DNA of 64,000 nt from an uncultured Mycoplasmatota bacterium. Its GTDB lineage: Bacteria; Bacillota_I; Bacilli_A; RF39; UBA660. The stretch spans positions 21,858 to 85,857 of the forward strand of contig UQVP01000001.1 in NCBI GenBank assembly GCA_900544605.1. The letters are read 5' to 3'. The notes beneath the pieces are model-generated. The model ran no database searches. It saw nothing but the letters and a program-made list of their open reading frames with translations, and was not told where the DNA came from. Positions within the stretch are counted from its first letter, which is position 1. Every line of letters begins with the position of its first letter. A program made the translations under genes and the position numbers. Below, piece by piece: positions 1 through 38,094 of the stretch.

Positions 1-962
1 TTGTTTTTAATATATTTCTTTAAAGTATTATTTAACTCCAATTTATCTTTAAAAAAGTTATCAAAATCTTTAACATCATAAATTTTTTTATTAGATAAAT
101 TTAAATTATCAAAAGACACAAAATTTATATATTTCCCAGGAAATAATTCTTCCAGTGAAAACATATATTTTTTATCTTTCTCTAATCCTTGGGAAATATT
201 ATATTCAACTATTTCATTTAAAGTTTCTTCATATCCTAACTTTATTTCATCATAATCATTAAATACAGTCAAATCAGAGTCTAAAAAATCTCTAACATTA
301 CTATTTTGTGTACTATTAACAATTATATTATCTGTATTAGGATATACATATATTTGATCTAATTTTTTTAGACTTAGTTGAGTATTAACATCAAAAATTC
401 TAATACTTTCTATTTCATCATCAAAAAATTCTAATCGCACTGGATTTTCCATAGATACAGGATATATATCAATTACAAAACCTCTAACAGCAAAATCACC
501 TGTTTTTTCTACCAAAGTTTCCTTTTCATATCCTAATTCTACCAAACTTTCAACTAATTTATTAAAATTAAATGTCATACCTGCTTTTAAATCTAAAATA
601 CCATTAAGAAATCTATGTTTGTCAGGAAGATATTTTAAATATCCCATTAAATTAGTTATAACTATATAGTTATTATTTTTAGATAACTCTATCATAGTTT
701 CAATTCTTTTTATTTTTAATTCAGGCGATGATGCTAAAACTTCACTAGTTAAAAAGTTATCCATGGGAAATAATAATACTTTTTCTGTATAATTATTTAT
801 ATATTGATACAAAGTATTAGCTTCATACAAACTATTTGTTACAACTAAAAAACCTTTATTTTTCTTTTTAAGTAATTCATAGCAATACATAGCTTTTAGT
901 TCACTATTTAAACCAACTATATTTGAAGCGTCAAAATTAAATTTTGAACTTATTATTTTCAT
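1..962 (-). CDS. mfd: Transcription-repair coupling factor Mfd, N-terminal part (5' partial: start codon at 960-962, gene runs off window start)
   Basis: Minus-strand translation from ATG 960-962 (RBS GGAGGTG at 967-975) gives ...VLLFPMDNFLTSEVLASSPELKIKRIETM... and ...ELGYEKETLVEKTGDFAVRGFVIDIYP...NPVRLEFFDDEIESIRIFD, matching remembered B. subtilis Mfd N-terminal motifs; sits downstream of pth as in Bacillus. Absent from the ORF track because there is no in-window stop. Confidence 0.8.
   Translation of the reverse strand, partial: MKIISSKFNFDASNIVGLNSELKAMYCYELLKKKNKGFLVVTNSLYEANTLYQYINNYTEKVLLFPMDNFLTSEVLASSPELKIKRIETMIELSKNNNYIVITNLMGYLKYLPDKHRFLNGILDLKAGMTFNFNKLVESLVELGYEKETLVEKTGDFAVRGFVIDIYPVSMENPVRLEFFDDEIESIRIFDVNTQLSLKKLDQIYVYPNTDNIIVNSTQNSNVRDFLDSDLTVFNDYDEIKLGYEETLNEIVEYNISQGLEKDKKYMFSLEELFPGKYINFVSFDNLNLSNKKIYDVKDFDNFFKDKLELNNTLKKYIKN
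130..145. promoter_or_regulatory. NBS-like 16-mer TATTTCCCAGGAAATA (copy A, inside mfd coding sequence)
   Basis: Exact 16-mer; inverted repeat TATTTCC-ca-GGAAATA; resembles B. subtilis Noc-binding site ATTTCCCGGGAAAT. Confidence 0.5.
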
Positions 963-6045: not shown

Positions 6046-7743
6046 CTAATTGTAATTTATTGCATCACTAAATAAATTTTCTATTTCATTTTTATTTTCA
6101 TTTTCATTTTTTAATATCTGATCTATACTTTCTGTTTCTTCAACATATGTATATTGTTTAAGATGTGAATTAAATTCTTTCTTAATTATTTCCCAGGAAA
6201 TATTATCCGTTGAAATAACTTTATAATTATGTTTAAAAACTTTAGCAACTATTTCTTCTATTTTTAAAATATTTTCGTTAAATAGGTCACTATCAGTTTC
6301 TGTATTAAATACATAAATAAGATAATTTTCACTTGCTGCCTTTAAATTTCCATCTAGAATAATAGAAACGTATTTACTATAATCTAGATTTATCAAAAGA
6401 GGCTTTAAATCATCTTCTAATGATTTTATCTTTGTTAATTCTTTTTTATTAAATTTTGCTAAAGTATTATTGATTCTTATTTCCTTTATTTTTTTTAATT
6501 TTTCTTTTATTTCTCGGTTAATCGGTGTAAACGAATTATCAACTTTATATGAATTATTTTCTTTTTTTATTACAGTTTTTGATTCATTTTTATTTTCTAT
6601 TGGTCTTACTGAAAGGTTTTCTTTTATCAAATTTGATACATATTGTTTGTTTTGTGTTTTTTCATAATTGAGTAACTTTAAAATCAATAATTCAAATTGT
6701 AGTCTTTGTACTGTACCTTTTTTTATAACAGATAAATTTTGATTCATTGTATCTATCAAATCAATTAATTCTAATTTTGACAATATTCCAGACATATTTT
6801 TATATACCTCAGTATCATAGTTACTATCAATTAAATATTGTGGTGCTTCTTCAACTATTAATACATTTTTAAAAAACAATATTAATTCCTCTAAAATTTT
6901 AGTAAAGTTTTTACCAGTTTCATCAAAATTATCAATTTTTGTTAAAACTTCATAGACATTTTTATTTAAAATTTCTATTGCAAATTTAGATAATTCTTCT
7001 TGTGTTAGTGTTCCATTAATCAAATGAACATCTTCTACTGTTATTTCATTTTGTGTAAAAGATGAAACTTGATCAAGAATACTTAAAGAATCTCGCATTC
7101 CACCATCAGCTAATCTTGCTATTTCTCTTATACTATCATCTGTTATTTTTATATTTTCTTTATTACAAATATCTTTTAATCTTTTAAAAATACAATTATT
7201 ACTTATTTTTTTAAAATCAAATCGTTGACATCTTGATAAAATAGTTAAAGGTATTTTTTGAGGTTCAGTTGTTGCTAATATGAAAATAGCATGTTTTGGT
7301 GGTTCTTCTAATGTTTTTAATAGGGCATTAAAAGCACCTGTAGTAAGCATATGGACTTCATCAATTATATATATCTTATACTTTCCTAAAGAAGGTACTA
7401 AATTAACTTTATTACGTAATTCTCTTATTTCATCAACACCATTATTTGAAGCTGCGTCTATTTCTATAACATCCACGTGATTTTTATTAATATTTTGTGT
7501 ACAATTAACGCATTTATTACAAGCTACACCATCAACCAGGTTTTCACAGTTTACTGATTTTGCTAATATTTTTGCTATACTTGTTTTACCTGTTCCTCTA
7601 GGTCCCGTAAATAAATAAGCATGATTTATATTACCAAGTTTTAAAGAATTTAATAGTGTTTTTACTATTATATCTTGGCCTACCACATCAGAAAAATCTA
7701 TCGGTCTATATTTTCTATATAATGCTTGATACATATTAATCAC
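6046..7743 (-). CDS. dnaX: DNA polymerase III subunit tau/gamma
   Basis: Walker A GPRGTGKTS, zinc module CNKCVNC, SRC motif (LSRCQRF). Confidence 0.9.
   Translation of the reverse strand: MINMYQALYRKYRPIDFSDVVGQDIIVKTLLNSLKLGNINHAYLFTGPRGTGKTSIAKILAKSVNCENLVDGVACNKCVNCTQNINKNHVDVIEIDAASNNGVDEIRELRNKVNLVPSLGKYKIYIIDEVHMLTTGAFNALLKTLEEPPKHAIFILATTEPQKIPLTILSRCQRFDFKKISNNCIFKRLKDICNKENIKITDDSIREIARLADGGMRDSLSILDQVSSFTQNEITVEDVHLINGTLTQEELSKFAIEILNKNVYEVLTKIDNFDETGKNFTKILEELILFFKNVLIVEEAPQYLIDSNYDTEVYKNMSGILSKLELIDLIDTMNQNLSVIKKGTVQRLQFELLILKLLNYEKTQNKQYVSNLIKENLSVRPIENKNESKTVIKKENNSYKVDNSFTPINREIKEKLKKIKEIRINNTLAKFNKKELTKIKSLEDDLKPLLINLDYSKYVSIILDGNLKAASENYLIYVFNTETDSDLFNENILKIEEIVAKVFKHNYKVISTDNISWEIIKKEFNSHLKQYTYVEETESIDQILKNENENKNEIENLFSDAINYN
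6187..6202. promoter_or_regulatory. NBS-like 16-mer TATTTCCCAGGAAATA (copy B, inside dnaX coding sequence)
   Basis: Exact 16-mer; encodes ISWEII in dnaX (minus strand), a different frame and peptide from copies A and D. Confidence 0.5.
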
Positions 7744-8224: not shown

Positions 8225-8242
8225 ATGTTTCACGTGAAACAT
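8225..8242. promoter_or_regulatory. parS: parS site 1 (aTGTTTCACGTGAAACAt, perfect palindrome)
   Basis: Exact match to the Bacillus-type parS consensus TGTTNCACGTGAAACA. Confidence 0.8.
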
Positions 8243-8257
8243 AAATCTATTTTGCAA

Positions 8258-8275
8258 TGTTCCACGTGGAACATC
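8258..8275. promoter_or_regulatory. parS: parS site 2 (aTGTTCCACGTGGAACAt, symmetric variant)
   Basis: 16/16 palindrome with CACGTG core, one symmetric substitution relative to site 1; abuts the 3' U tract of ffs. Confidence 0.7.
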
Positions 8276-8277
8276 AT

Positions 8278-8355
8278 AAAAAAAGCACACACATTTAGAG
8301 GATCTTAAGGCTGCTATTTTCCAATTCTGACCTGGTTCAAACATAAATGTTGTGC
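8278..8355 (-). ncRNA. ffs: Signal recognition particle RNA, small (4.5S-type)
   Basis: Minus-strand RNA gcacaacauuuauguuugaACCAGGUCAGaauuGGAAaauAGCAGCCuuaagauccucuaaaugugugugcUUUUUUU carries the conserved domain-IV signature CCAGGUCAG...GGAA...AGCAGCC of E. coli 4.5S; termini pair (gcacaacauuua / uaaaugugugugc) and end in a U tract. Ends are approximate (+/-5 nt). Confidence 0.8.
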
Positions 8356-8434
8356 ATTAATAATATATTATATTTTTAATATTTTTTCAACACTTATATG
8401 GTCTAATTTATAATTAAATTAAAAATTACTATAT

Positions 8435-8452
8435 ATGTTTCACGTGAAACAT
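8435..8452. promoter_or_regulatory. parS: parS site 3 (TGTTTCACGTGAAACA inside a 26-bp palindrome atatatgtttcacgtgaaacatatat)
   Basis: Perfect core identical to site 1. Confidence 0.8.
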
Positions 8453-8473
8453 ATATAATCTCTTATATAAATT

Positions 8474-8489
8474 ATTTCCCAGGAAATAA
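8474..8489. promoter_or_regulatory. NBS-like 16-mer TATTTCCCAGGAAATA (copy C, intergenic between parS sites 3 and 4)
   Basis: Exact 16-mer. Confidence 0.5.
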
Positions 8490-8505
8490 TTTTAAAAAGA
8501 AAAGA

Positions 8506-8523
8506 ATGTTTCACGTGAAACAT
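8506..8523. promoter_or_regulatory. parS: parS site 4, also the stem of a bidirectional intrinsic terminator just downstream of gyrA
   Basis: agaaTGTTTCACGTGAAACAttct flanked by T runs on both strands; gyrA stop at 8529. Confidence 0.75.
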
Positions 8524-14185: not shown

Positions 14186-14635
14186 TTATTGGTTTTTTCG
14201 ACTTCTTAAAATTGATTCTAAACGAGATGCACGTAAAATTTGACTTTCTAATGTAAATATAGAAATATCTAAATTCAAATTAGTATCATTTTTAAAAGTA
14301 ATATTGGAACCCTTATTACATCTAACATAATTTTTTAAATTATTTAAAGAAATCCAAGCACATTCTACTAATCTTGGTGATGCGGTTGGAAAAAAGATAA
14401 TACTTCTACTCTCTTCTACTATGATAGGTAATTTATAGCTCATTCCTAACATATTTTTAGTACCTTCATATCTACCTTGATAATTACTCCCATAATAACA
14501 ACAGCTTTCATTTATAATTTCAAAAACAGGTTTATCAATTATGTATTCATTTCCTATTTCTATTATTCTAGTTGTGGTTTCATCTATAGGAACGATTGCT
14601 AAAGTACCAATATTAATTTCATAACTATGCAACAT
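14186..14635 (-). CDS. comK: ComK-family competence transcription factor homolog (likely true start at ATG 14633-14635 rather than the ORF-track start at 14695)
   Basis: ...SYEINIGTLAIVPIDE...CCYYGSNYQGR...KLPIIVEESRSIIFFPTASPRLVECAWISL... matches B. subtilis ComK blocks (SYEVNGATIAVLPEE / CRFFGSSYAGR / KPPIMVDPSNQIFLFPTLSSTRPQCGWIS, recalled from memory). A strong RBS AGGGAGGTG lies 7 nt upstream of the internal Met (M21 of the track ORF). Confidence 0.75.
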   Translation of the reverse strand: MLHSYEINIGTLAIVPIDETTTRIIEIGNEYIIDKPVFEIINESCCYYGSNYQGRYEGTKNMLGMSYKLPIIVEESRSIIFFPTASPRLVECAWISLNNLKNYVRCNKGSNITFKNDTNLNLDISIFTLESQILRASRLESILRSRKNQ

Positions 14636-14700
14636 TAAATTCACCTCCCTACTTATAAATTTCCACAAAAAATGGAAATTTCCTTTCTTATACATTAATT

Positions 14701-16042: not shown

Positions 16043-17404
16043 TTATTTAATTTGATTAACAATTTTATTAATTTGTTCTTCTAATTCATGATTAGTTTTT
16101 ATTTCTTTTTTTATTTTATCTACTGAATGCATAACAGTTGTATGATCTTTTCCACCAAATTCTAATCCTATTTTAGGCAATGATTCAGCTAAATAAGTTC
16201 TACAAATATACATTCCTACTTGCCTTGGTACAGAAATACTTGCCATCCTTTTTTTACTTTTAATATCTTCAACAGATATATTGTAAGCATTTGCAATTAA
16301 TTGTTGTACTTGTTCAATCTTATTTTTTGATATAATACTTTTTACAAAATAGTCTTTTAGTGCTTCTGTTGCAAGTTCAATTGTAATATCAGACCCATTC
16401 ATTATGGTTGCATAAGCGAAAACTCTAGTTATTGCACCTTCTAATTTTCTAATATCAGATGTACAATTGCTGGCAATATATTCTTTAACCTCTATAGGAA
16501 AATCATTGCACACATCATTAGCTTCTATTTTTTTGTCTATTATATCCATTCTTAATTTAAAATCTGGTGGTAGAATATCTATTGTTAATCCCCAATTGAA
16601 TCTTGTTCTAAGTCTTTCTTCTAATTTTTTTAAATCATCTGGTGATCTATCAGAAGAAATAATTATTTGCTTATTATTACAATGTAATTCATTAAATGTG
16701 TTGAAAAATTCTTGTTGTGTTTTGCTAGCTATTTCTAGGTATTGAATATCATCAATCATTAAAACATCAACATTTCTATATTTATTTTTAAATTCATCAA
16801 CAGCATCAAAATTATTTTCATCTTTATTTTTTCTATAAATATTTAGAAAATCATCAACAAATTTTTCACTTGTGACATATAAAACTTTTTTATTACTATT
16901 TTTAACAATATAATTACCTATCGCGTGCATTAAATGTGTTTTTCCTAGTCCACTACTACCATATATAAACAAAGGATTGTACATAAAACCAGGTTGTTCT
17001 GCTACCGCTAAAGAAGTAGCCTTCGCAAATTTATTACTATTTCCCACAATAAAATTATCAAAAGTATATTTAGGGTCGAGATTAGATTCATATAGATTAT
17101 TAGATGGAACCCCTACTTTATCAACGTCAATTGTAACATTTTTAACAATTTCTTCTTCTAATAAATATTCAAATTTAAAATTGCTACCAGTTATCTCTGT
17201 GAAAATTTCTTCTATTAAATTATTATAATTTTCTTTTAAATGTTTCTTATGTACTTGCATGGGAACTAAAATTTTGGCTGTATTATCGTTTAGTTCTATT
17301 AATTTAGTGTCCATAAACCATGTTTCATATAGTATAGGATCTAATTCAGCTTTTATTTTTTCAAGAAACAAGCTCCATATTGTATTAATATCCACACAAA
17401 ACAC
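16043..17404 (-). CDS. dnaA: Chromosomal replication initiator protein DnaA
   Basis: AAA+ Walker A GSSGLGKTHL, C-terminal DnaA-box-binding domain; flanked by DnaA-box clusters. Confidence 0.95.
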   Translation of the reverse strand: MFCVDINTIWSLFLEKIKAELDPILYETWFMDTKLIELNDNTAKILVPMQVHKKHLKENYNNLIEEIFTEITGSNFKFEYLLEEEIVKNVTIDVDKVGVPSNNLYESNLDPKYTFDNFIVGNSNKFAKATSLAVAEQPGFMYNPLFIYGSSGLGKTHLMHAIGNYIVKNSNKKVLYVTSEKFVDDFLNIYRKNKDENNFDAVDEFKNKYRNVDVLMIDDIQYLEIASKTQQEFFNTFNELHCNNKQIIISSDRSPDDLKKLEERLRTRFNWGLTIDILPPDFKLRMDIIDKKIEANDVCNDFPIEVKEYIASNCTSDIRKLEGAITRVFAYATIMNGSDITIELATEALKDYFVKSIISKNKIEQVQQLIANAYNISVEDIKSKKRMASISVPRQVGMYICRTYLAESLPKIGLEFGGKDHTTVMHSVDKIKKEIKTNHELEEQINKIVNQIK

Positions 17405-23097: not shown

Positions 23098-23794
23098 AAA
23101 GGAATTTATACAAGAAATAAATAAATTAGGTATTCAATTAACTGATGAACAATTACACCAACTAGATAAATATTATCAACTTTTAATAGAATGGAATAAA
23201 GTTATGAATTTAACTGGGATAACAGAAGAAAAAGAAGTATATTTGAAACATTTTTATGATAGTTTGACAATTGCTAAAGTTATAGATTTAACAAAAGAAA
23301 AAAGTTTGTGTGATGTAGGAAGTGGAGCTGGGTTTCCTGGAATGGTATTAAAAATAGTGTTTCCTAATCTAAAGGTTACATTAGTTGATTCTTTAAATAA
23401 GAGAATAAAGTTTTTAACAGAAGTAGCTAATGAACTAAATTTAAAAGATATTGCTTTAGTTCATGCTAGAGCAGAAGATTTTGCTAAGAATAACCGTGAA
23501 AAATTTGATGTTGTAACAGCTCGTGCTGTCGCACCAATAAATGTGTTATTAGAATATTGTTTACCTTTAACAAAAGTTGGGAAATATTTTATTGCCTTAA
23601 AAGGAAATATTTCCCAGGAAATAATTTTATTAAATAATTCATTAACAAAAATAGGTGGGAAATTAATTAATTCACAAGAATTTTTACTACCAATAGAAAA
23701 TAGTAATCGTTCATTATTAGTAATTACGAAAGAAAATCCAACTTCAAAAAAATATCCACGTCATCCAAAAGATATAAAAAATAACCCTCTATAG
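23090..23794 (+). CDS. rsmG: 16S rRNA (guanine527-N7)-methyltransferase RsmG
   Basis: SAM motif DVGSGAGFPG; mnmG-rsmG synteny. Confidence 0.9.
   Translation: MNKKEFIQEINKLGIQLTDEQLHQLDKYYQLLIEWNKVMNLTGITEEKEVYLKHFYDSLTIAKVIDLTKEKSLCDVGSGAGFPGMVLKIVFPNLKVTLVDSLNKRIKFLTEVANELNLKDIALVHARAEDFAKNNREKFDVVTARAVAPINVLLEYCLPLTKVGKYFIALKGNISQEIILLNNSLTKIGGKLINSQEFLLPIENSNRSLLVITKENPTSKKYPRHPKDIKNNPL
23608..23623. promoter_or_regulatory. NBS-like 16-mer TATTTCCCAGGAAATA (copy D, inside rsmG coding sequence)
   Basis: Exact 16-mer; encodes NISQEII in rsmG. Confidence 0.5.
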
Positions 23795-23810
23795 GGTTAT
23801 TTTTTTTATT
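23783..23810 (+). terminator. Intrinsic terminator after rsmG (AACCCT-ctat-AGGGTT plus T9)
   Basis: Read from sequence. Confidence 0.6.
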
Positions 23811-23885
23811 TCCCAAAAAACTATTGTAATATTTCCCAAACTATAGTATCATATTACTATAAAAGAATAAGGAAGGGGAATTATT

Positions 23886-25190
23886 ATGGATAATAATAGA
23901 AAAGTGGTAGAACTTCCTTTAGATGATGTTTTACCTAATAGATTTCAACCAAGAATTAAATTTAATGAAGAAGCAATAACAGAATTATCAGAATCAATCA
24001 AAGAACACGGTGTTATTCAACCAATTGTTGTACGCCCTGTAGGAGATAGATATGAAATAATAGCAGGAGAAAGAAGATTTAAAGCTTCCACTTTAGCTGG
24101 ACTTTCAACTATTCCAGCTATTATAATAAATTTAAATGATAAAGATAGTGCTGAAGTTGCTTTAATAGAGAATGTACAAAGACAAGATTTGACACCAATT
24201 GAAGAAGCTATTTCTTATAAAAAAATCTTAGATATGGGGTATTTAAAACAAGAAGATTTAGCTGAAAAAATAGGAAAAAGTCAATCTGCTATAGCAAATA
24301 AATTAAGATTATTGAATTTAGATGAAGATGTTCAAGAAGCTTTATTAAATGGTAAAATTTCAGAAAGACATGCCAGATCTTTATTAAAATTAACAAATAA
24401 AGAAGATCAAGTAAAATTATTAAATAAAATCATTACAGAAAGATTAACTGTTAGAAAAACAGACGAGGAAATAAACAAGATGTTAAATGGAGAAAACAAA
24501 GAAGTAAATAAAGATATTGAAGTATTAAATTTAGATGAGCCTGTTATTATTCCTTCTTTTGAAGCAGATAATAAATTTAATATACCATCAAATCCGATAA
24601 TTGAAAATGAAACATCCCCACAAGAAAGAAAAGCACAAGATATAATTAATCCTTTCTTAAATGTAGATTTATCTTCAGAAACAACTACTAAAGAAAATGA
24701 AGATAATCTACCAAAATTTAATGATTTGATTAAAAATACTGATGAAGTTCAAGAACCTACGGAAAATAAAGAAAAAGAAGTTAGTAATTTCTTTAATATT
24801 CCAACATCAGAAGAAATAGATAATATGTTGGCATCTCCTGAAAAAGTTTCTGAAAAAGCTGATAATTACCAATTTAAAAATGATTTTGTTCCACAAGACG
24901 AGAGTACTTCTACACCGGATTTTACAATATCTCCTAATTTTGGAATTCCAACTTTTGATGACTCAATTTTTAATAATTCATCATCAAATTCTAATTCTGT
25001 AAAAAATGAATTGCCAGAAGTAAAAAGAACAGATACTTTTGTAACTGGTGACATAAAAACTGTTATTAATACTTTAAGGGATTGTGCAAATACTATAGAA
25101 AAATATGGTTTTGATGTAGATACAGAAGAATTTGATTTAGGTGATATGTACCAAGTAGTATTTAAAGTTCACAAAAAACCAAATGAATAA
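23886..25190 (+). CDS. ParB/Noc-family DNA-binding protein with long low-complexity acidic C-terminal extension
   Basis: N-terminal ParB box ...FQPRIKFNEEAITELSESIKEHGVIQPIVVRPVGDRYEIIAGERRF..., HTH KSQSAIANKLRLL; about 180 extra C-terminal residues rich in E/N/S/T/F; located at the noc position after rsmG; no parA/soj downstream. Confidence 0.8.
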   Translation: MDNNRKVVELPLDDVLPNRFQPRIKFNEEAITELSESIKEHGVIQPIVVRPVGDRYEIIAGERRFKASTLAGLSTIPAIIINLNDKDSAEVALIENVQRQDLTPIEEAISYKKILDMGYLKQEDLAEKIGKSQSAIANKLRLLNLDEDVQEALLNGKISERHARSLLKLTNKEDQVKLLNKIITERLTVRKTDEEINKMLNGENKEVNKDIEVLNLDEPVIIPSFEADNKFNIPSNPIIENETSPQERKAQDIINPFLNVDLSSETTTKENEDNLPKFNDLIKNTDEVQEPTENKEKEVSNFFNIPTSEEIDNMLASPEKVSEKADNYQFKNDFVPQDESTSTPDFTISPNFGIPTFDDSIFNNSSSNSNSVKNELPEVKRTDTFVTGDIKTVINTLRDCANTIEKYGFDVDTEEFDLGDMYQVVFKVHKKPNE

Positions 25191-25198
25191 TAAAAAAT

Positions 25199-25232
25199 GC
25201 GATGAATGTTAAAACTTCATCGCTTTTCTTTA
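25199..25232 (+). terminator. Intrinsic terminator after the ParB-family gene (GCGATGAA-loop-TTCATCGC plus TTTTCTTT)
   Basis: Read from sequence. Confidence 0.7.
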
Positions 25233-34730: not shown

Positions 34731-35126
34731 ATGAAATTAATTAAAAGTATTATGTTTGTTTTCATGGTTAGTACCTTTTTAGCTGTTACTGGTACAAATG
34801 CCTCTGGGGCTTCTGTTGGATATAGTGATATAACAATATCTGCCCTAGGAGGAACATACACTACTTCTGCTTATGACAAAACAAAAAGTGGACCTAAACA
34901 AAGAATTTATACAACAGATATGACAACCAGCATGAAAGCAAGAACTTATGCAACATTATCCCCATCTGGTTATAGTGATTGGATTAATCTTCAAAAGAAA
35001 GCTGAACAAGATTGGGGAAATCAAAATAGTGATATAAATCAATATAAACTTCAAATAAAATGTACAGGATATAATTTACTTAACGAAAAATACTGGGGTA
35101 TTTGGAAATATAACTGGCCAGAATAA
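34731..35126 (+). CDS. Small secreted protein (Sec signal peptide, about 105-aa mature, Trp-rich C-terminus), function unknown; candidate bacteriocin-like protein
   Basis: MKLIKSIMFVFMVSTFLAVTGTNASGA signal peptide; RBS GGAGG; first gene of an operon with ABC-type permeases. Confidence 0.6.
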   Translation: MKLIKSIMFVFMVSTFLAVTGTNASGASVGYSDITISALGGTYTTSAYDKTKSGPKQRIYTTDMTTSMKARTYATLSPSGYSDWINLQKKAEQDWGNQNSDINQYKLQIKCTGYNLLNEKYWGIWKYNWPE

Positions 35127-35155
35127 TTAAAATAAAATTCTCTCTTTTATCTTAT

Positions 35156-36070
35156 TTGGAGGAAAAAATGAAAAAAATAAAACAAAATTATATATTAATA
35201 TTAACAATTATAATTATTGCAGTTTTAACATTGCTAGCGGTTTATAACAATATAAAAGAATATAAAATGAATGTTTTTTCATATAAATATCATGTTAATC
35301 AATGTAATAATGAATATAAAAATGATAGTTCTATGCAAGAATATTGTAACAATTTAAAATTATGGGGTGGGCCTAAAAGGTCAGATGCATTTTTTACTTT
35401 TTTTGATTTACTTTTTGATGATAGGCTTATGATTTTAGAATTATTGCTTCCCTTGTTAATAATTCTTTGTTCACTAGATAAATTTCTAAAAAAACTTAAA
35501 AGTGGTTATTTAAAAAATGAATTAACTAGGATGCCATATAAAAAAATTATAATTAAAGAGTGGTTAAATGGTGCTAAAATTATTTTTATAATACCTTGTT
35601 TTTTCATAGTTTTATTTATCATTTCCTTTTTTATGACAGGAAATATAAATTATAAAGAGTCGTTGAATAATTTTGACCCTTGGGTTAATCCACTCTTCTT
35701 TAATAATTTATTTACATCAATTATAATTTATTTTTTAAATTTCTTTCTATATGGTGTTTTCTTAGTAAATATAGGTTTTATTGTTGCTAGAGATAGCAAA
35801 AACATTATTTTAACATATATAACAAGTTATTTAGTTTATTTTGGTCTTTGGCTTTTATCTGAAACAATATTAGGATATTTTATATTTAATGGCTTATTAG
35901 GTAAACCCGAATGGCATAATTATTTTTCATTTACATCAATATGGGGTTATCCAAATATAAATAATTTTTATGTTCGTACTTTAATTCAGTTCTTATGGAC
36001 GCTTGGCTCATTTCTTGTTTTAATAAAATTTTATAAAAAGAAAGAGAAGGTGTTAATTAACAATGAGTAA
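35156..36070 (+). CDS. Polytopic membrane protein (ABC-2-like permease candidate) with Cys-containing extracytoplasmic loop
   Basis: 304 aa, multiple TM segments; RBS GGAGG; overlaps next gene. Confidence 0.55.
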   Translation: MEEKMKKIKQNYILILTIIIIAVLTLLAVYNNIKEYKMNVFSYKYHVNQCNNEYKNDSSMQEYCNNLKLWGGPKRSDAFFTFFDLLFDDRLMILELLLPLLIILCSLDKFLKKLKSGYLKNELTRMPYKKIIIKEWLNGAKIIFIIPCFFIVLFIISFFMTGNINYKESLNNFDPWVNPLFFNNLFTSIIIYFLNFFLYGVFLVNIGFIVARDSKNIILTYITSYLVYFGLWLLSETILGYFIFNGLLGKPEWHNYFSFTSIWGYPNINNFYVRTLIQFLWTLGSFLVLIKFYKKKEKVLINNE

Positions 36071-36809
36071 AAATTTTAACTTAGAATTTACAAAGAAAAT
36101 TTTATCTTCAAATAAATCTGTATTATCTATTTTGTTATTAATAGCAACTAATTTTCTTTTAATCCCAAAATATTCAGCAAATTTTGAATATATAGATGCC
36201 TTTATATCTGTGAACAATCTATTTATTTATAATACTATCATTGCTGCTATTTTGCTTTTGAGTACACTAAACACAATTAAAATATTTGAACAAAACAAAA
36301 TATTGATTATTAGGCTTCAAACAAAAGAAAAATATTTTTTAGAGTTATTAAAAACAGTTTTAATAGTTAATTTAGTCGTAATTTTATTGAATTTTATTTT
36401 GTTACTAACAAATTTAAATTTTTTTGCTAATTCTCTTAAAATTCAAAATTTTGTTGTATATAATATACCAAATATTTTGTATGCAGTATTTATATTTTTG
36501 AAGAAAATATTTCTATTTGAATTTTTATCTGTAATATTTTTAATAAGTAACCAAAAACTTAATAAAAATTTATCTATAATAGTATCTCTTGTTATTGTTC
36601 TATTATTGTTTGTCGCACCATATAGCGACATTTATATAAATTCTATATTTAATATTAGATTATTTTATTGGGATTATTTTGTTTATCATAGATATTCCTC
36701 ATTTTTATTAGAATTATCGCTTACTAGTATCTATTTTTGTGGATGCTTTATGGTTTGCTATATATTGTCAAAATATATTATTAAAAATTTAAAAGAAATT
36801 GGTGATTAA
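36063..36809 (+). CDS. Polytopic membrane protein (ABC-2-like permease candidate)
   Basis: 248 aa hydrophobic; start overlaps upstream stop; TAATG coupling to next gene. Confidence 0.55.
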   Translation: MSKNFNLEFTKKILSSNKSVLSILLLIATNFLLIPKYSANFEYIDAFISVNNLFIYNTIIAAILLLSTLNTIKIFEQNKILIIRLQTKEKYFLELLKTVLIVNLVVILLNFILLLTNLNFFANSLKIQNFVVYNIPNILYAVFIFLKKIFLFEFLSVIFLISNQKLNKNLSIIVSLVIVLLLFVAPYSDIYINSIFNIRLFYWDYFVYHRYSSFLLELSLTSIYFCGCFMVCYILSKYIIKNLKEIGD

Positions 36810-37456
36810 TGAAATATATATTTAGAAATGATTTTAATTTTTTTAAAAAATTTTTAACAATAGCTTCAGTATTCTACATATTACCACTAGTTCTTTATTA
36901 TTGTGTATACTTATTGACCGGTGGAGCTCTAGATAAAAATTTAATTAGTCAATTTTTATCATATAATGTAGAATTTAATTCTTCAAAATGGATTTTTATA
37001 ATAATCAGTATATTAAATATTTTAACTTATTTTAGCTTAATAATTAATTTAATTATTAGAGATCTCACATATGGATATGAATATATTTTTTTAAGATTAA
37101 ATATTAAATCATGGCTTCTTTATAAAATAGTTTCTTTATGTTTTTACATTTTTATTTATACAGTTTTAAGAAGTTTATTATTTGTTATTATTACAAACAT
37201 TAATATAAATATAATTGGATTCGATTTAGTATATATAACAATTTATCAATTTATTTTATTTTTGTTTGTTGCTATACTATTATTATTTTTGGTAATAAAT
37301 TTTAAAAATAATATATTACCATTGTTAGTTATGGTTATTCCAATGCTAAATTTTAATTTATTTAGTTTAATAGTTATGACTATTATTATAGTATTTCTGT
37401 TATTACTATCTATAAAAAACAACAATATTAACATTATTAGAGGAGGGTGTAAATAA
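36809..37456 (+). CDS. Polytopic membrane protein (ABC-2-like permease candidate)
   Basis: 215 aa hydrophobic; TAATG stop/start overlaps at both ends. Confidence 0.55.
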   Translation: MKYIFRNDFNFFKKFLTIASVFYILPLVLYYCVYLLTGGALDKNLISQFLSYNVEFNSSKWIFIIISILNILTYFSLIINLIIRDLTYGYEYIFLRLNIKSWLLYKIVSLCFYIFIYTVLRSLLFVIITNININIIGFDLVYITIYQFILFLFVAILLLFLVINFKNNILPLLVMVIPMLNFNLFSLIVMTIIIVFLLLLSIKNNNINIIRGGCK

Positions 37457-38094
37457 TGAAAATACAAATTAAAAATCTTTCTAAAAGTTTTAAAGGAATT
37501 ACCATTTTAGATAATGTATCTATTGAATTTGAATCAGGTAAAATATATGGACTAATAGGAAGAAATGGAAGTGGGAAAAGTGTTTTTTTAAAGCTTCTTT
37601 GTAATTTTTATGTTCCTACTTCTGGCGAAATATTATATGATGGATTAAATATAAATGAAAAAAATATTTTTCTTCCAGATACTAGAGCATTAATAGAAAA
37701 ACCATCATTTTTACCGGATTTATCTGGATTTGATAACTTAAAGTTATTAGCGTCTATTCAAGGAAAAATAGGTGATAAAGAAATTAATGAAAGTTTGAAA
37801 AAAGTCAATTTGTTTGATGATAAAGATAAAAAGTATAAAATATATTCGCTAGGTATGAAACAGAAATTAGGAATAGCGCAAGTGTTGATGGAAGATCCTA
37901 AAGTAATGATACTTGATGAACCATTTAATGGAATTGAAGAAAAAACTGCTGAAAAATTAAGAAATATCTTAAAAGAAGAAGTTAAAAAAGATAAAATTAT
38001 AATTATTGCATCACATATTAAGGAAGACGTATTCGAACTAGCAGATGTAGTTTATAAATTTGATGATGGTAAAGTTGAAATTTGTAATAAATAA
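37456..38094 (+). CDS. ABC transporter ATP-binding protein
   Basis: Walker A GRNGSGKS, signature-like LGMKQKLGIAQ, Walker B ILDEP. Confidence 0.85.
   Translation: MKIQIKNLSKSFKGITILDNVSIEFESGKIYGLIGRNGSGKSVFLKLLCNFYVPTSGEILYDGLNINEKNIFLPDTRALIEKPSFLPDLSGFDNLKLLASIQGKIGDKEINESLKKVNLFDDKDKKYKIYSLGMKQKLGIAQVLMEDPKVMILDEPFNGIEEKTAEKLRNILKEEVKKDKIIIIASHIKEDVFELADVVYKFDDGKVEICNK

What the first reader, a model, noticed from the sequence alone, without database searches (positions are those of the whole stretch)
23886..25190. ParB/Noc-family protein at the noc locus with Noc-like HTH residues, no N-terminal membrane helix, a long acidic Phe-motif tail and no soj-spo0J downstream
In Bacillus the order is rsmG-noc-soj-spo0J. 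Here a single ParB-family gene follows rsmG, then comes a terminator and uvrB; no ParA is present. The HTH region KSQSAIANKLRLL...GKISERHAR carries Q, K (at i+6) and R (at i+28). By my recollection of the ParB-to-Noc specificity-switch work, these are Noc-type residues at 3 of the 4 specificity positions (Noc Q/K/K/R versus ParB R/T/A/G). The numbering is from memory and needs an alignment. The protein lacks Noc's N-terminal amphipathic membrane-targeting helix; it starts MDNNRKVVELPLDD. Instead it carries an E/N/S/T-rich C-terminal extension of about 180 aa, with short Phe-containing repeats (NPFLNV, NFFNIP, NFGIPTFDD) and a final globular-looking block of about 50 aa. Together with the NBS-like 16-mers and the parS array, this suggests a Noc-like DNA-membrane tether with a relocated membrane/partner-binding module. 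It could also be a single ParB-family protein covering both roles.
Basis: partly seen in the sequence, partly recalled or inferred. Interest (0 to 1): 0.7.

Follow-up and report, generated by a model that had tools for sequence, protein, structure and literature searches.

The report
Noc variant without its membrane helix
[quoted passage not shown] In its place it carries a long acidic disordered segment with conserved short motifs, a layout shared by a large undescribed family.

Summary
ORF 23886-25190 (+) encodes a 434-aa ParB-family protein directly after rsmG. It has its own promoter and terminator and is followed by uvrB. No ParA or second ParB lies in the window or within 10 kb on either side.

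It belongs to the Noc lineage. Its best sequence and fold matches are Noc. The specificity residues are Q133/K139/N144/R161, which is Noc's QKKR at 3 of 4 positions. Its last ~50 aa match only the Noc C-terminal domain. NBS-type sites are enriched, including a conserved pair of half-sites in its own promoter.

The ~25-residue N-terminal membrane-targeting segment of canonical Noc is absent.

The layout is not a one-off. The best 150 cluster representatives (50% identity) share it. They are 291-982 aa long and those with a source name come from uncultured Bacilli MAGs. Their linkers carry conserved motifs: [KR]FF in an acidic tract in 111 of 151, and NPGFMD..KIE..A.DI in 67 of 151.

The most likely reading is an NBS-loaded CTP clamp whose linker motifs replace the lost membrane helix by docking a partner. 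Direct membrane insertion is less likely. This is a new variant of a known kind. A dual ParB/Noc role is not supported.

The parts
23886..25190 (+). Noc-lineage ParB-family gene, 434 aa
   Evidence: ORF. Pfam ParB_N + HTH_ParB. TIGR04285 nucleoid_noc scores 298 bits against 198 for the generic parB model. Best PDB sequence and fold matches are Noc 7ng0/7nfu.
23901..24179 (+). N-terminal ParB/Srx (CTP-binding) domain, residues 6-98. It includes AGERR (24063-24077); the IENVQR box (24165-24182) spans its C-terminal boundary.
   Evidence: These residues are invariant in 74 relatives. AF2 pLDDT is about 85-92.
24183..24485 (+). HTH DNA-binding domain, residues 100-200. Specificity residues: Q133 (24282-24284), K139 (24300-24302), N144 (24315-24317), R161 (24366-24368).
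   Evidence: Alignment to B. subtilis Noc Q158/K164/K169/R186. Rule from Jalal 2020. The model's DNA-binding domain superposes on the Noc-NBS structure 6y93 at rmsd 1.5-1.9 A.
24498..25019 (+). Acidic, disordered linker insertion, residues 205-378. Net charge -23, 12 Phe.
   Evidence: Composition. AF2 pLDDT <50 over most of 205-387. No Pfam or NCBIfam hit. Length varies from 152 to 295 aa in close relatives. Whole proteins in the wider family reach 982 aa.
24576..24605 (+). Linker motif FNIPSNPIIE (residues 231-240)
   Evidence: Conserved island, 58-74% column identity apart from the two variable positions 235-236 (28-32%). Found in 45 of 74 close relatives.
24645..24665 (+). Linker motif INPFLNV (residues 254-260). 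This is a degenerate copy of family motif A, [IV]NPGF[MV]D[VI]xKIExxAxDI.
   Evidence: Motif A occurs in 67 of 151 family representatives against 1.1 expected.
24708..24731 (+). Linker motif LPKFNDLI (residues 275-282). A short helix is predicted at 279-282.
24780..24800 (+). Linker motif VSNFFNI (residues 299-305). This is the query's copy of family motif B, G-[KR]-F-F-x-hydrophobic-hydrophobic in an acidic tract.
   Evidence: F302 is 97% conserved in 74 relatives. Motif B occurs in 111 of 151 family representatives against 8.6 expected on shuffled linkers.
24930..24974 (+). Linker motif SPNFGIPTFDDSIFN (residues 349-363). Its IPTF core is identical to the core of the B. subtilis FtsZ C-terminal peptide DIPTFLR.
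   Evidence: FtsZ peptide sequence from bioRxiv 10.1101/459685. The resemblance is a lead only.
25020..25178 (+). Noc-type C-terminal (dimerisation) domain, residues 379-431: one helix plus a beta-hairpin.
   Evidence: The isolated C-terminal 67 aa hit only TIGR04285, at model positions 202-255 of 255, E 1.2e-5. AF2 pLDDT is about 87 with H390-406, E409-417, E422-430. C400, G408, E415 and Y422 are invariant.
23807..23852 (+). Own promoter. Two direct NBS half-sites TATTTCCC (23807-23814, 23830-23837) bracket and overlap -35 TTGTAA (23824-23829); -10 is TATCAT (23847-23852). The RBS AAGGAAGGGG follows at 23869-23878.
   Evidence: Promoter scan. The block TATTTCCCAAA...TTG.AATATTTCCCAAA.TATAGTAT is conserved in 7 species (A3) and in a relative at 50% identity. 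In L013 the upstream copy is a near-complete NBS.
25199..25232 (+). Intrinsic terminator of the gene
   Evidence: strand folding: dG -12.6 kcal/mol, z -4.4, followed by UUUUCUUU.
23608..23623 (.). NBS-like 16-mer TATTTCCCAGGAAATA inside the 3' end of rsmG, 263 bp upstream of the gene (site end 23623 to the ATG at 23886)
   Evidence: At the syntenic position four sister species carry the perfect NBS TATTTCCCGGGAAATA.
8473..8488 (.). NBS-like 16-mer TATTTCCCAGGAAATA, embedded in the parS array
6187..6202 (.). NBS-like 16-mer TATTTCCCAGGAAATA (inside dnaX)
130..145 (.). NBS-like 16-mer TATTTCCCAGGAAATA
8226..8522 (.). parS array flanking the SRP RNA gene: three perfect TGTTTCACGTGAAACA (8226, 8436, 8507) and one palindromic variant TGTTCCACGTGGAACA (8258). 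These are not sites for this protein. They imply a separate parS-binding ParB.
   Evidence: (8 strand-matches against 0.06 expected).

Best explanation
This is the Noc orthologue of an uncultured, spore-forming, walled, low-GC (~26%) gut Bacilli lineage, in a variant architecture.

**Supported by homology and by the sites.** It is a ParB-family CTP-binding clamp. Its HTH carries the Noc specificity residues (Q, K, R). It therefore nucleates on NBS-type sites, not on parS. In this species those sites are TATTTCCCAGGAAATA. Nucleation on the half-sites in its own promoter is inferred only from their conservation and enrichment. It dimerises through a Noc-type C-terminal domain.

**Shown by sequence.** It lacks the ~25-residue N-terminal segment (membrane-targeting helix alpha1, alpha2 and loop) that canonical Noc needs for function. 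Instead, a 150-aa or longer acidic, disordered linker is inserted between the DNA-binding domain and the C-terminal domain; whole proteins in the wider family reach 982 aa. This linker carries single-copy conserved short motifs.

**Inferred.** These motifs do the job of the lost helix. They connect the NBS-loaded nucleoprotein complex to the cell envelope or division machinery. The most likely route is docking onto a partner protein, probably membrane-associated. Many clamps spread around each NBS would provide avidity.

The conserved NBS half-sites over its own promoter suggest autoregulation, or a nucleation site at the gene.
For: **Noc lineage**
- TIGR04285 scores 298 bits against 198 for the generic parB model.
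- PDB phmmer gives Noc 219 bits against Spo0J 174-181.
- Foldseek's top hits are Noc 7nfu, 7ol9 and 7ng0, and the DNA-binding domain fits 6y93 at 1.5-1.9 A.
- The Noc-type PNRFQPR box is present.
- The C-terminal domain hits only the Noc model.
- The gene sits directly after rsmG, and this synteny is conserved down to 50%-identity relatives.

**DNA specificity**
- The quartet is QKNR.
- Jalal 2020 shows that Q173 and R201 read NBS and that one K at 179 or 184 suffices.
- The Q and R positions are present in all 137 scorable of 145 family representatives (8 could not be scored).

**Sites**
- Four identical NBS-like 16-mers occur against 0.23 expected.
- A perfect NBS sits at the syntenic rsmG position in 4 sister species.
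- A promoter half-site pair is conserved in 8 species.
- The half-site TATTTCCC is enriched about 3-9 fold in seven of the eight relatives' origin-proximal loci tested, while control 8-mers are not.

**Missing helix**
- There are 14-21 residues before PNRFQPR in 141 of the 145 newly listed representatives, against 39 in B. subtilis Noc.
- The conserved promoter and RBS just upstream fix the start codon.

**Linker**
- It is disordered.
- It is acidic in all 151 representatives.
- Motif B occurs in 111 of 151 against 8.6 expected. Motif A occurs in 67 of 151 against 1.1 expected. Both are single-copy and in a fixed order.
- Motif A has invariant polar positions (N-P-G-F, K-I-E, A, D-I), which is typical of specific protein docking.
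Against: - No biochemical or cell-biological data exist; every member with a source name comes from an uncultured MAG.
- The partner is unknown, and no co-conserved neighbouring gene points to one.
- AF2 gives no confident structure or docking for the motifs.
- Overall identity of NTD+DBD to Noc (49-55%) is only slightly above that to Spo0J (46-48%), so the lineage branches deeply.
- The protein scores below NCBIfam's Noc cut-off (298 < 315).
- The query's own copies of motifs A and B are degenerate (INPFLNV, SNFFNI).
- For B. subtilis Noc, Adams 2015 found no evidence of any protein partner.
Confidence: 0.55

Rival explanations
1. Relocated membrane anchor. The linker's Phe motifs, above all [KR]FFx-hydrophobic, insert directly into the membrane. 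They would replace the N-terminal amphipathic helix, so the protein is a direct DNA-membrane tether like canonical Noc.
For: - The motif B core (G-K/R-F-F-N-hydrophobic, then acidic residues) resembles the canonical Noc helix core S-R-F-F-G-L-G-E-K-E (PDB chains; logo).
- Gain of the motif coincides with loss of the N-terminal helix across the family.
- Adams 2015 shows the Noc helix is deliberately weak and can be replaced by an unrelated one.
- The query has three segments with negative interfacial energy.
Against: - The linker has net charge -23 and no cationic amphipathic helix. All 151 linkers are acidic.
- Best 7-mer interfacial energies are -1.5 (query) and -2.2 (family consensus), against -3.0 for the Noc helix.
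- This model does not explain the other conserved motifs, especially the 18-residue motif A with its invariant polar residues.
Confidence: 0.22
2. No envelope link at all. The protein is an NBS-bound chromosome organiser and/or autoregulating transcription factor. Its long acidic linker acts as an entropic or electrostatic spacer, or enlarges the clamp lumen. Any nucleoid occlusion would be by bulk exclusion.
For: - NBS half-sites overlap its own promoter in all species examined.
- Linker length is hypervariable: 152-295 aa in close relatives, with whole proteins up to 982 aa and PVVE-type repeats in the longest. Its composition is uniformly acidic. Both are typical of spacer regions.
- The membrane helix is absent.
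Against: Pure spacers do not keep single-copy motifs conserved across clusters below 50% identity, with an invariant FF and an invariant NPGF...KIE..A.DI.
Confidence: 0.15
3. A single ParB-family protein serves both as Spo0J (on the parS array) and as Noc (on NBS).
For: It is the only ParB-family gene in about 84 kb around oriC, which holds both a parS array and NBS sites. No ParA gene is nearby.
Against: - The Q and R positions are invariant and there is no R173/G201 signature. In Jalal 2020, Q/R variants read A1/C6 of NBS.
- parS and NBS are each kept as exact palindromes and lie within 50 bp of each other, which implies two readers.
- There is no Spo0J-type N-terminal peptide. Adams 2015 notes that this peptide mediates Soj contact.
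- The rest of the genome could not be searched, so absence of spo0J is not shown.
Confidence: 0.04
4. An ordinary Spo0J/ParB paralogue, with the Noc resemblance being superficial.
For: NCBI annotates family members only as 'ParB/RepB/Spo0J family partition protein'. Identity to T. thermophilus Spo0J (48%) is close to identity to B. subtilis Noc (49%).
Against: All Noc-discriminating features except the helix are present. These are the specificity residues, PNRFQPR, the Noc C-terminal domain, NBS sites, the position after rsmG, and a Noc model score 100 bits above the generic ParB model.
Confidence: 0.03

Closest known systems
Noc (nucleoid occlusion protein) of Bacillus subtilis / Geobacillus thermoleovorans (TIGR04285; PDB 7ol9, 7nfu, 7ng0, 6y93)
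   Same: It has the ParB/Srx CTP-binding domain with GERR and ENxQR boxes. Its HTH carries Q/K/R at the NBS-specificity positions, and it has a Noc-type C-terminal domain. The gene lies directly after rsmG, and NBS 16-mers lie on the chromosome. It is 49-55% identical over NTD+DBD.
   Different: It lacks the first ~25 residues (membrane-targeting helix alpha1, alpha2, loop). These were reported as extremely conserved in all Noc examined and necessary for function (Adams 2015). It has K184->N. It has a 150-aa or longer acidic disordered insertion with conserved short motifs between the DNA-binding and C-terminal domains. It scores below the curated Noc cut-off. soj-spo0J are not downstream.
Chromosomal ParB / Spo0J (TIGR00180; PDB 6sdk, 1vz0)
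   Same: It has the same fold and CTP-clamp motifs, and is 46-48% identical over NTD+DBD.
   Different: It has Q and R instead of R173 and G201, so it is predicted not to read parS. It has PNRFQPR instead of PNPxQPR. It has no N-terminal ParA-activating peptide and no adjacent parA. Its C-terminal domain matches the Noc model, not a ParB model.
SlmA of E. coli (nucleoid occlusion by direct FtsZ-tail binding)
   Same: The only likeness is a possible functional analogy. It would apply if the linker motifs engage division proteins directly from a DNA-bound platform.
   Different: SlmA has an unrelated fold (TetR family), unrelated DNA sites and no CTP clamp. Here the occlusion factor would carry an FtsZ-tail-like peptide (IPTF) rather than bind one. 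This analogy is untested.
KorB of plasmid RK2 (ParB-family CTP clamp that works through a protein partner, KorA)
   Same: It is a ParB-family sliding clamp whose output depends on docking a partner rather than on ParA or membrane. It also sits on its own promoters. It is a weak sequence and fold match.
   Different: KorB has different DNA specificity, no Noc-type residues, a different partner interface and a plasmid context.

Membership tests
Noc (nucleoid occlusion protein, TIGR04285) | ParB/Srx N-terminal domain with CTP-binding boxes (GERR, ENxQR) | tested here: met
   PF02195 E 2.7e-34. AGERR and IENVQR are present and invariant in 74 relatives.
Noc (nucleoid occlusion protein, TIGR04285) | NBS-specificity residues Q173/K179/K184/R201 (Caulobacter numbering) | tested here: met
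   Q133/K139/N144/R161 align to B. subtilis Noc Q158/K164/K169/R186. This is 3 of 4. Jalal 2020 shows one Lys at 179 or 184 is sufficient.
Noc (nucleoid occlusion protein, TIGR04285) | N-terminal amphipathic membrane-targeting helix (aa 1-10/15) followed by alpha2 and a spacer | tested here: not met
   The ORF cannot extend upstream. There are 16 residues before PNRFQPR against 39 in B. subtilis Noc. The helix is absent in all 74 close relatives and 145 representatives.
Noc (nucleoid occlusion protein, TIGR04285) | Noc-type C-terminal dimerisation domain | tested here: met
   The C-terminal 67 aa hit only TIGR04285, positions 202-255 of 255, E 1.2e-5. The AF2 fold is confident. Dimerisation itself was not tested.
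Noc (nucleoid occlusion protein, TIGR04285) | Cognate NBS sites on the chromosome | tested here: met
   Four TATTTCCCAGGAAATA in the window against 0.23 expected, and a fifth just outside it. Sister species carry a perfect NBS at the syntenic site. Half-sites are enriched. Genome-wide distribution, including absence near ter, is not testable here.
Noc (nucleoid occlusion protein, TIGR04285) | Gene position immediately downstream of rsmG (gidB) near oriC | tested here: met
Noc (nucleoid occlusion protein, TIGR04285) | Score at or above NCBIfam's curated cut-off (315 bits) | tested here: not met
   298.2 bits in two stretches. The shortfall is explained by the missing N-terminus and the split caused by the linker.
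Noc (nucleoid occlusion protein, TIGR04285) | CTP-dependent clamp formation, membrane recruitment of DNA and division inhibition | not testable with these tools
   These require biochemistry and cell biology.
Chromosomal ParB / Spo0J | parS-specificity residues (R173, G201) | tested here: not met
   Q133 and R161 occupy these positions.
Chromosomal ParB / Spo0J | N-terminal ParA(Soj)-interacting peptide and adjacent parA gene | tested here: not met
   The N-terminus has only 5 residues before the first strand of the fold. There is no ParA Walker box in the window or in 10 kb on each side.

The most novel reading that the evidence does not exclude
Firmicutes may have a second, helix-independent mechanism of nucleoid occlusion. 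In it, NBS-loaded Noc clamps display a long acidic disordered arm. The arm's conserved peptides are an FF-in-acidic-tract motif, an NPGFMD..KIE..A.DI helix and, in this species, an FtsZ-tail-like IPTF motif. These would capture division proteins directly, for example the FtsZ-tail receptors FtsA, SepF, EzrA or MinC. Division would then be blocked over the chromosome by sequestration, as with SlmA, rather than by DNA-membrane tethering. This family spans at least 150 sequence clusters of uncultured gut Bacilli.
Probability: 0.15. Interest if true: 0.85.

Novelty: new variant of a known kind. Interest (0 to 1): 0.6.

Why it matters
The N-terminal membrane helix is considered the functional heart of Noc. 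Removing 10 residues abolishes nucleoid occlusion in B. subtilis, and the helix was reported as conserved in every Noc examined. Here a very large, previously undescribed family keeps everything else that defines Noc but has lost that helix. The family comprises all of the best 150 cluster representatives at 50% identity, and those with a source name come from uncultured Bacilli MAGs, several from gut samples. What it keeps includes NBS-reading residues, NBS sites, the C-terminal domain and the gene position. What it has gained is a long acidic disordered linker with conserved short motifs.

Either these bacteria tether DNA to the envelope in a new way, or Noc has a helix-independent activity. 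Both possibilities bear on the still-open question of how Noc actually blocks division, and they offer concrete peptides to test.

There are two practical consequences. Current annotation pipelines label these proteins as generic ParB partition proteins. In addition, the ParB clamp evidently tolerates DBD-CTD linkers of 150 aa and, judging from the longest family members (982 aa), several hundred.

Tried and rejected
1. **Restriction avoidance of CCGG as the cause of the species-specific NBS centre (CCCAGG instead of CCCGGG).** Rejected: CCGG is not under-represented (21 observed, 14.9 expected).
2. **Scan for a cationic amphipathic helix in the linker (hydrophobic moment).** None was found. 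The top segments are neutral or acidic.
3. **Domain searches of the isolated linker.** NCBIfam on the isolated linker gave no hit, and Pfam on the full-length protein placed no domain there.
4. **AF2 of the query and of a relative with canonical motifs (P0113), to look for docking of motifs onto the folded domains.** The motifs stay at pLDDT around 50-66 with no docking signal.
5. **Search for soj/spo0J.** A six-frame motif scan covered the window and all fetched loci. Walking 10 kb beyond each window end found only housekeeping and sporulation genes.
6. **The one allowed genome-contig scan.** It retrieved relatives at no more than 69% identity, but not the source genome.
7. **Cluster look-ups for a cultured carrier of the family.** Only MAG labels came back: 'Bacilli bacterium' and 'Firmicutes bacterium'.
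8. **Literature searches for Noc homologues lacking the helix or carrying disordered linkers.** Nothing was found.
9. **Beta-clamp-binding and SSB-tail-like readings of the Phe motifs.** Considered from memory and set aside, because the motifs do not fit those consensus sequences.
Full report
**Observation**

The ORF at 23886-25190 (+) is real. It encodes 434 aa, starts with ATG, and cannot be extended upstream. It carries ParB_N (residues 6-98) and HTH_ParB (residues 100-200), each at about E 1e-34.

It lies 91 bp after rsmG. Behind an rsmG terminator hairpin (23776-23805) sits a promoter-like TTGTAA-17-TATCAT (23824-23852). A hairpin plus U-tract terminator follows the gene (25199-25232; dG -12.6, z -4.4). 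uvrB comes next.

A six-frame scan finds no ParA Walker box and no second GERR box anywhere in the 64-kb window. The 10 kb beyond each end hold only housekeeping and sporulation genes. The window spans oriC, with dnaA at 16043-17404 on the minus strand and a GC-skew switch near 17-18 kb.

**What the protein is**

The protein belongs to the Noc lineage. Five lines of evidence support this.
- NCBIfam's Noc model TIGR04285 scores 298 bits, against 198 for the generic ParB model.
- In the PDB, Geobacillus Noc scores 219 bits and B. subtilis Noc 189. The Spo0J entries score 174-181.
- Foldseek with the AF2 model ranks the Noc structures first. The DNA-binding domain superposes on the Noc-NBS co-crystal 6y93 at 1.5-1.9 A.
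- The alignment to B. subtilis Noc has no gaps through the HTH. It puts Q133, K139, N144 and R161 opposite Noc Q158, K164, K169 and R186. Jalal et al. 2020 number these positions 173/179/184/201. They show that Q173 reads adenine 1 and R201 reads cytosine 6 of NBS. They also show that a single Lys at 179 or 184 is sufficient (PMC7383237).
- The last 67 residues, searched alone, hit only the Noc model, exactly at its C-terminal positions 202-255 (E 1.2e-5). They fold confidently as a helix plus hairpin.

The 'globular block' is therefore the Noc C-terminal domain. The 'acidic tail' is an insertion in the DBD-CTD linker.

**The DNA sites agree**

- The window has four identical 16-mers TATTTCCCAGGAAATA, at 130, 6187, 8473 and 23608, against 0.23 expected. 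A fifth lies just outside the window. Each differs from the canonical NBS by one central base.
- Four sister species, whose protein is 63-78% identical over the matched part, carry the perfect NBS TATTTCCCGGGAAATA at the syntenic spot in the 3' end of rsmG.
- The gene's own promoter contains two direct NBS half-sites (TATTTCCCAAA) bracketing the -35 element. This block is conserved in seven aligned species and in a relative at 50% identity. In one species the upstream copy is a near-complete NBS.
- The half-site TATTTCCC is enriched about 3-9 fold in seven of the eight relatives' origin-proximal loci tested, whereas control 8-mers are not.
- CCGG avoidance does not explain the central A of this species' sites.

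**What is missing**

Canonical Noc begins MKHSFSRFFGLGEKEQE... in B. subtilis and MKHPFSRLFSFGEKEQE... in Geobacillus. Both sequences were verified from PDB chains.

This ~25-residue segment comprises membrane-targeting helix alpha1, alpha2 and a loop, and is specific to Noc (PMC8429893). It was reported as extremely conserved in all Noc examined, and NocN-delta-10 is non-functional (PMC4331003).

The query has 16 residues before PNRFQPR, against 39 in B. subtilis Noc. The conserved RBS and promoter immediately upstream fix the start codon. The protein also lacks a Spo0J-type N-terminal peptide.

**The linker**

Residues 205-378 are rich in N, E, S, D and P, carry 12 Phe, and have net charge -23. 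No cationic amphipathic helix is present. The segment matches no known family and is predicted disordered.

In 74 relatives the linker is 152-295 aa long but keeps islands of conservation:
- FNIPxxPIIE
- NP(G)F
- PKFxDLL
- (G)KFFN, with F302 97% conserved
- NFGIPxFDD

**The family**

An exhaustive search of 1.84 billion cluster representatives shows how large this family is. The best 150 representatives at 50% identity all have this architecture.
- They are 291-982 aa long.
- 141 of the 145 newly listed have 14-21 residues before PNRFQPR.
- The Q and R positions are present in all that could be scored.
- All 151 linkers analysed are acidic.

Two single-copy motifs are family-wide:
- G-[KR]-F-F-x-hydrophobic-hydrophobic in an acidic tract, in 111 of 151 (8.6 expected on shuffled linkers).
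- [IV]NPGF[MV]D[VI]xKIExxAxDI, in 67 of 151 (1.1 expected).

All members with a source name are MAGs labelled Bacilli, Firmicutes, Bacillota or Tenericutes bacterium, from human (Hadza, Nepal) and rabbit samples. They are annotated only as 'ParB/RepB/Spo0J family partition protein'.

**The organism**

The organism is walled and forms spores. The evidence is SpoIIR, MurA, SpoIID, SpoIIID, MreB, SpoVT, BofA and CotJ. The gene order rsmG, noc-like gene, uvrB ... rplI-dnaB is conserved down to 50%-identity relatives.

**A second ParB?**

The intergenic region between gyrA and tadA holds four parS sites around the SRP RNA gene. Three are perfect and one is a palindromic variant. One NBS-like site is interleaved among them.

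Two distinct palindromes kept side by side argue for two readers, and so does the NBS-type quartet of this protein. I therefore infer that a parS-binding ParB is encoded elsewhere. I could not search the rest of the genome, so this remains inference.

**Mechanism**

By homology, the protein should nucleate on NBS, bind CTP, close its N-terminal gate and slide. This would form nucleoprotein complexes held together by the C-terminal dimer.

How it produces an output without the helix is inferred. I favour docking of the linker motifs onto a protein partner, probably at the membrane or divisome. The reasons are:
- There are several different conserved motifs.
- One motif has many invariant polar positions.
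- The flanks are uniformly acidic.
- Predicted interfacial energies are about half those of the already weak Noc helix.

The rival is direct membrane insertion. It draws on the likeness of [KR]FFx-hydrophobic followed by acidic residues to the Noc helix core SRFFGLGEKE.

The IPTF core of NFGIPTFDD is identical to the core of the B. subtilis FtsZ tail DIPTFLR. This is a lead only, because a four-residue match has roughly a 0.03-0.15 chance expectation in such a linker (my estimate).

A pure spacer role does not explain the conservation of the motifs.

**Comparison and novelty**

The protein works like Noc at the DNA end and is most probably its orthologue. It fails one defining feature, the membrane helix, and it falls below the curated score cut-off. 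I therefore file it as a new variant of Noc, not as a canonical member. I found no paper describing helix-less or long-linker Noc.

**Limits**

Everything here is computational. Overall identity to Noc is only a little higher than to Spo0J, so a proper phylogeny is needed. The partner of the linker motifs is unknown.

Noticed in passing
window 8226-8522: The parS array brackets the SRP RNA gene (Rfam RF00169, 8276-8361, minus strand). Two parS lie on each side. The variant at 8258 (TGTTCCACGTGGAACA) keeps perfect palindromy. An NBS-like site (8473-8488) sits between two parS, 21 bp and 18 bp away, so ParB and Noc loading sites are interleaved.
   Followed up: partly
window 130, 6187, 8473, 23608; L016:11423-11438: All five NBS-like sites of this species have the same asymmetric centre (CCCAGG) in the same orientation. 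Sister species have CCCGGG. In rsmG the change turns an Arg codon (CGG) into Gln (CAG). CCGG is not avoided in the genome, so a restriction-avoidance explanation fails. The cause is unexplained.
   Followed up: partly
window 23807-23852; L007-L013 and L020 upstream of the gene: Two direct NBS half-sites (TATTTCCCAAA, 23 bp apart) overlap the promoter of the noc-like gene. They are conserved in all eight species examined. This suggests autoregulation or a nucleation site at the gene.
   Followed up: partly
L020, L007, L009, L013, L015 (whole loci) and window: The NBS half-site TATTTCCC is enriched about 3-9 fold in origin-proximal DNA of the clade (for example 10 observed against 1.07 expected in L020). 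This holds even where no full palindromic NBS is present. Half-sites may be functional for this family.
   Followed up: partly
window, whole; also L007-L018: GATC is under-represented by about half (83 observed against 151 expected in the window) in this species and its relatives. This is consistent with a GATC-specific restriction system or similar pressure.
   Followed up: no
P0121-P0265 (family representatives): About 11 of 145 representatives have quartets such as QTNR, QTGR or QTTR, with no Lys at either permissive position (179/184). In the Caulobacter scaffold of Jalal 2020 such variants did not bind DNA. Other residues must be permissive here.
   Followed up: no
window 14186-14695 (-): A ComK-family gene lies between dnaN and recF, inside the otherwise classical dnaA-dnaN-recF-gyrB-gyrA block. 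This placement is conserved in conspecific contigs and in a relative at 50% identity.
   Followed up: no
L018:1-9600 (conspecific contig beyond the window's right end): One strain carries a roughly 9-kb phage-like or integrative element next to the Mn-catalase/CotJ genes. It encodes a serine recombinase, a tyrosine integrase, HTH regulators and a DnaB_2 replication protein. Another strain (L019) lacks it.
   Followed up: no
window 34731-37456 (+): Four consecutive ORFs (131, 304, 248 and 215 aa) have no Pfam match. An ABC ATPase (37456-38094) and spoIIR follow. In one conspecific contig (L003) spoIIR lies where this block sits in the window and in L001.
   Followed up: no
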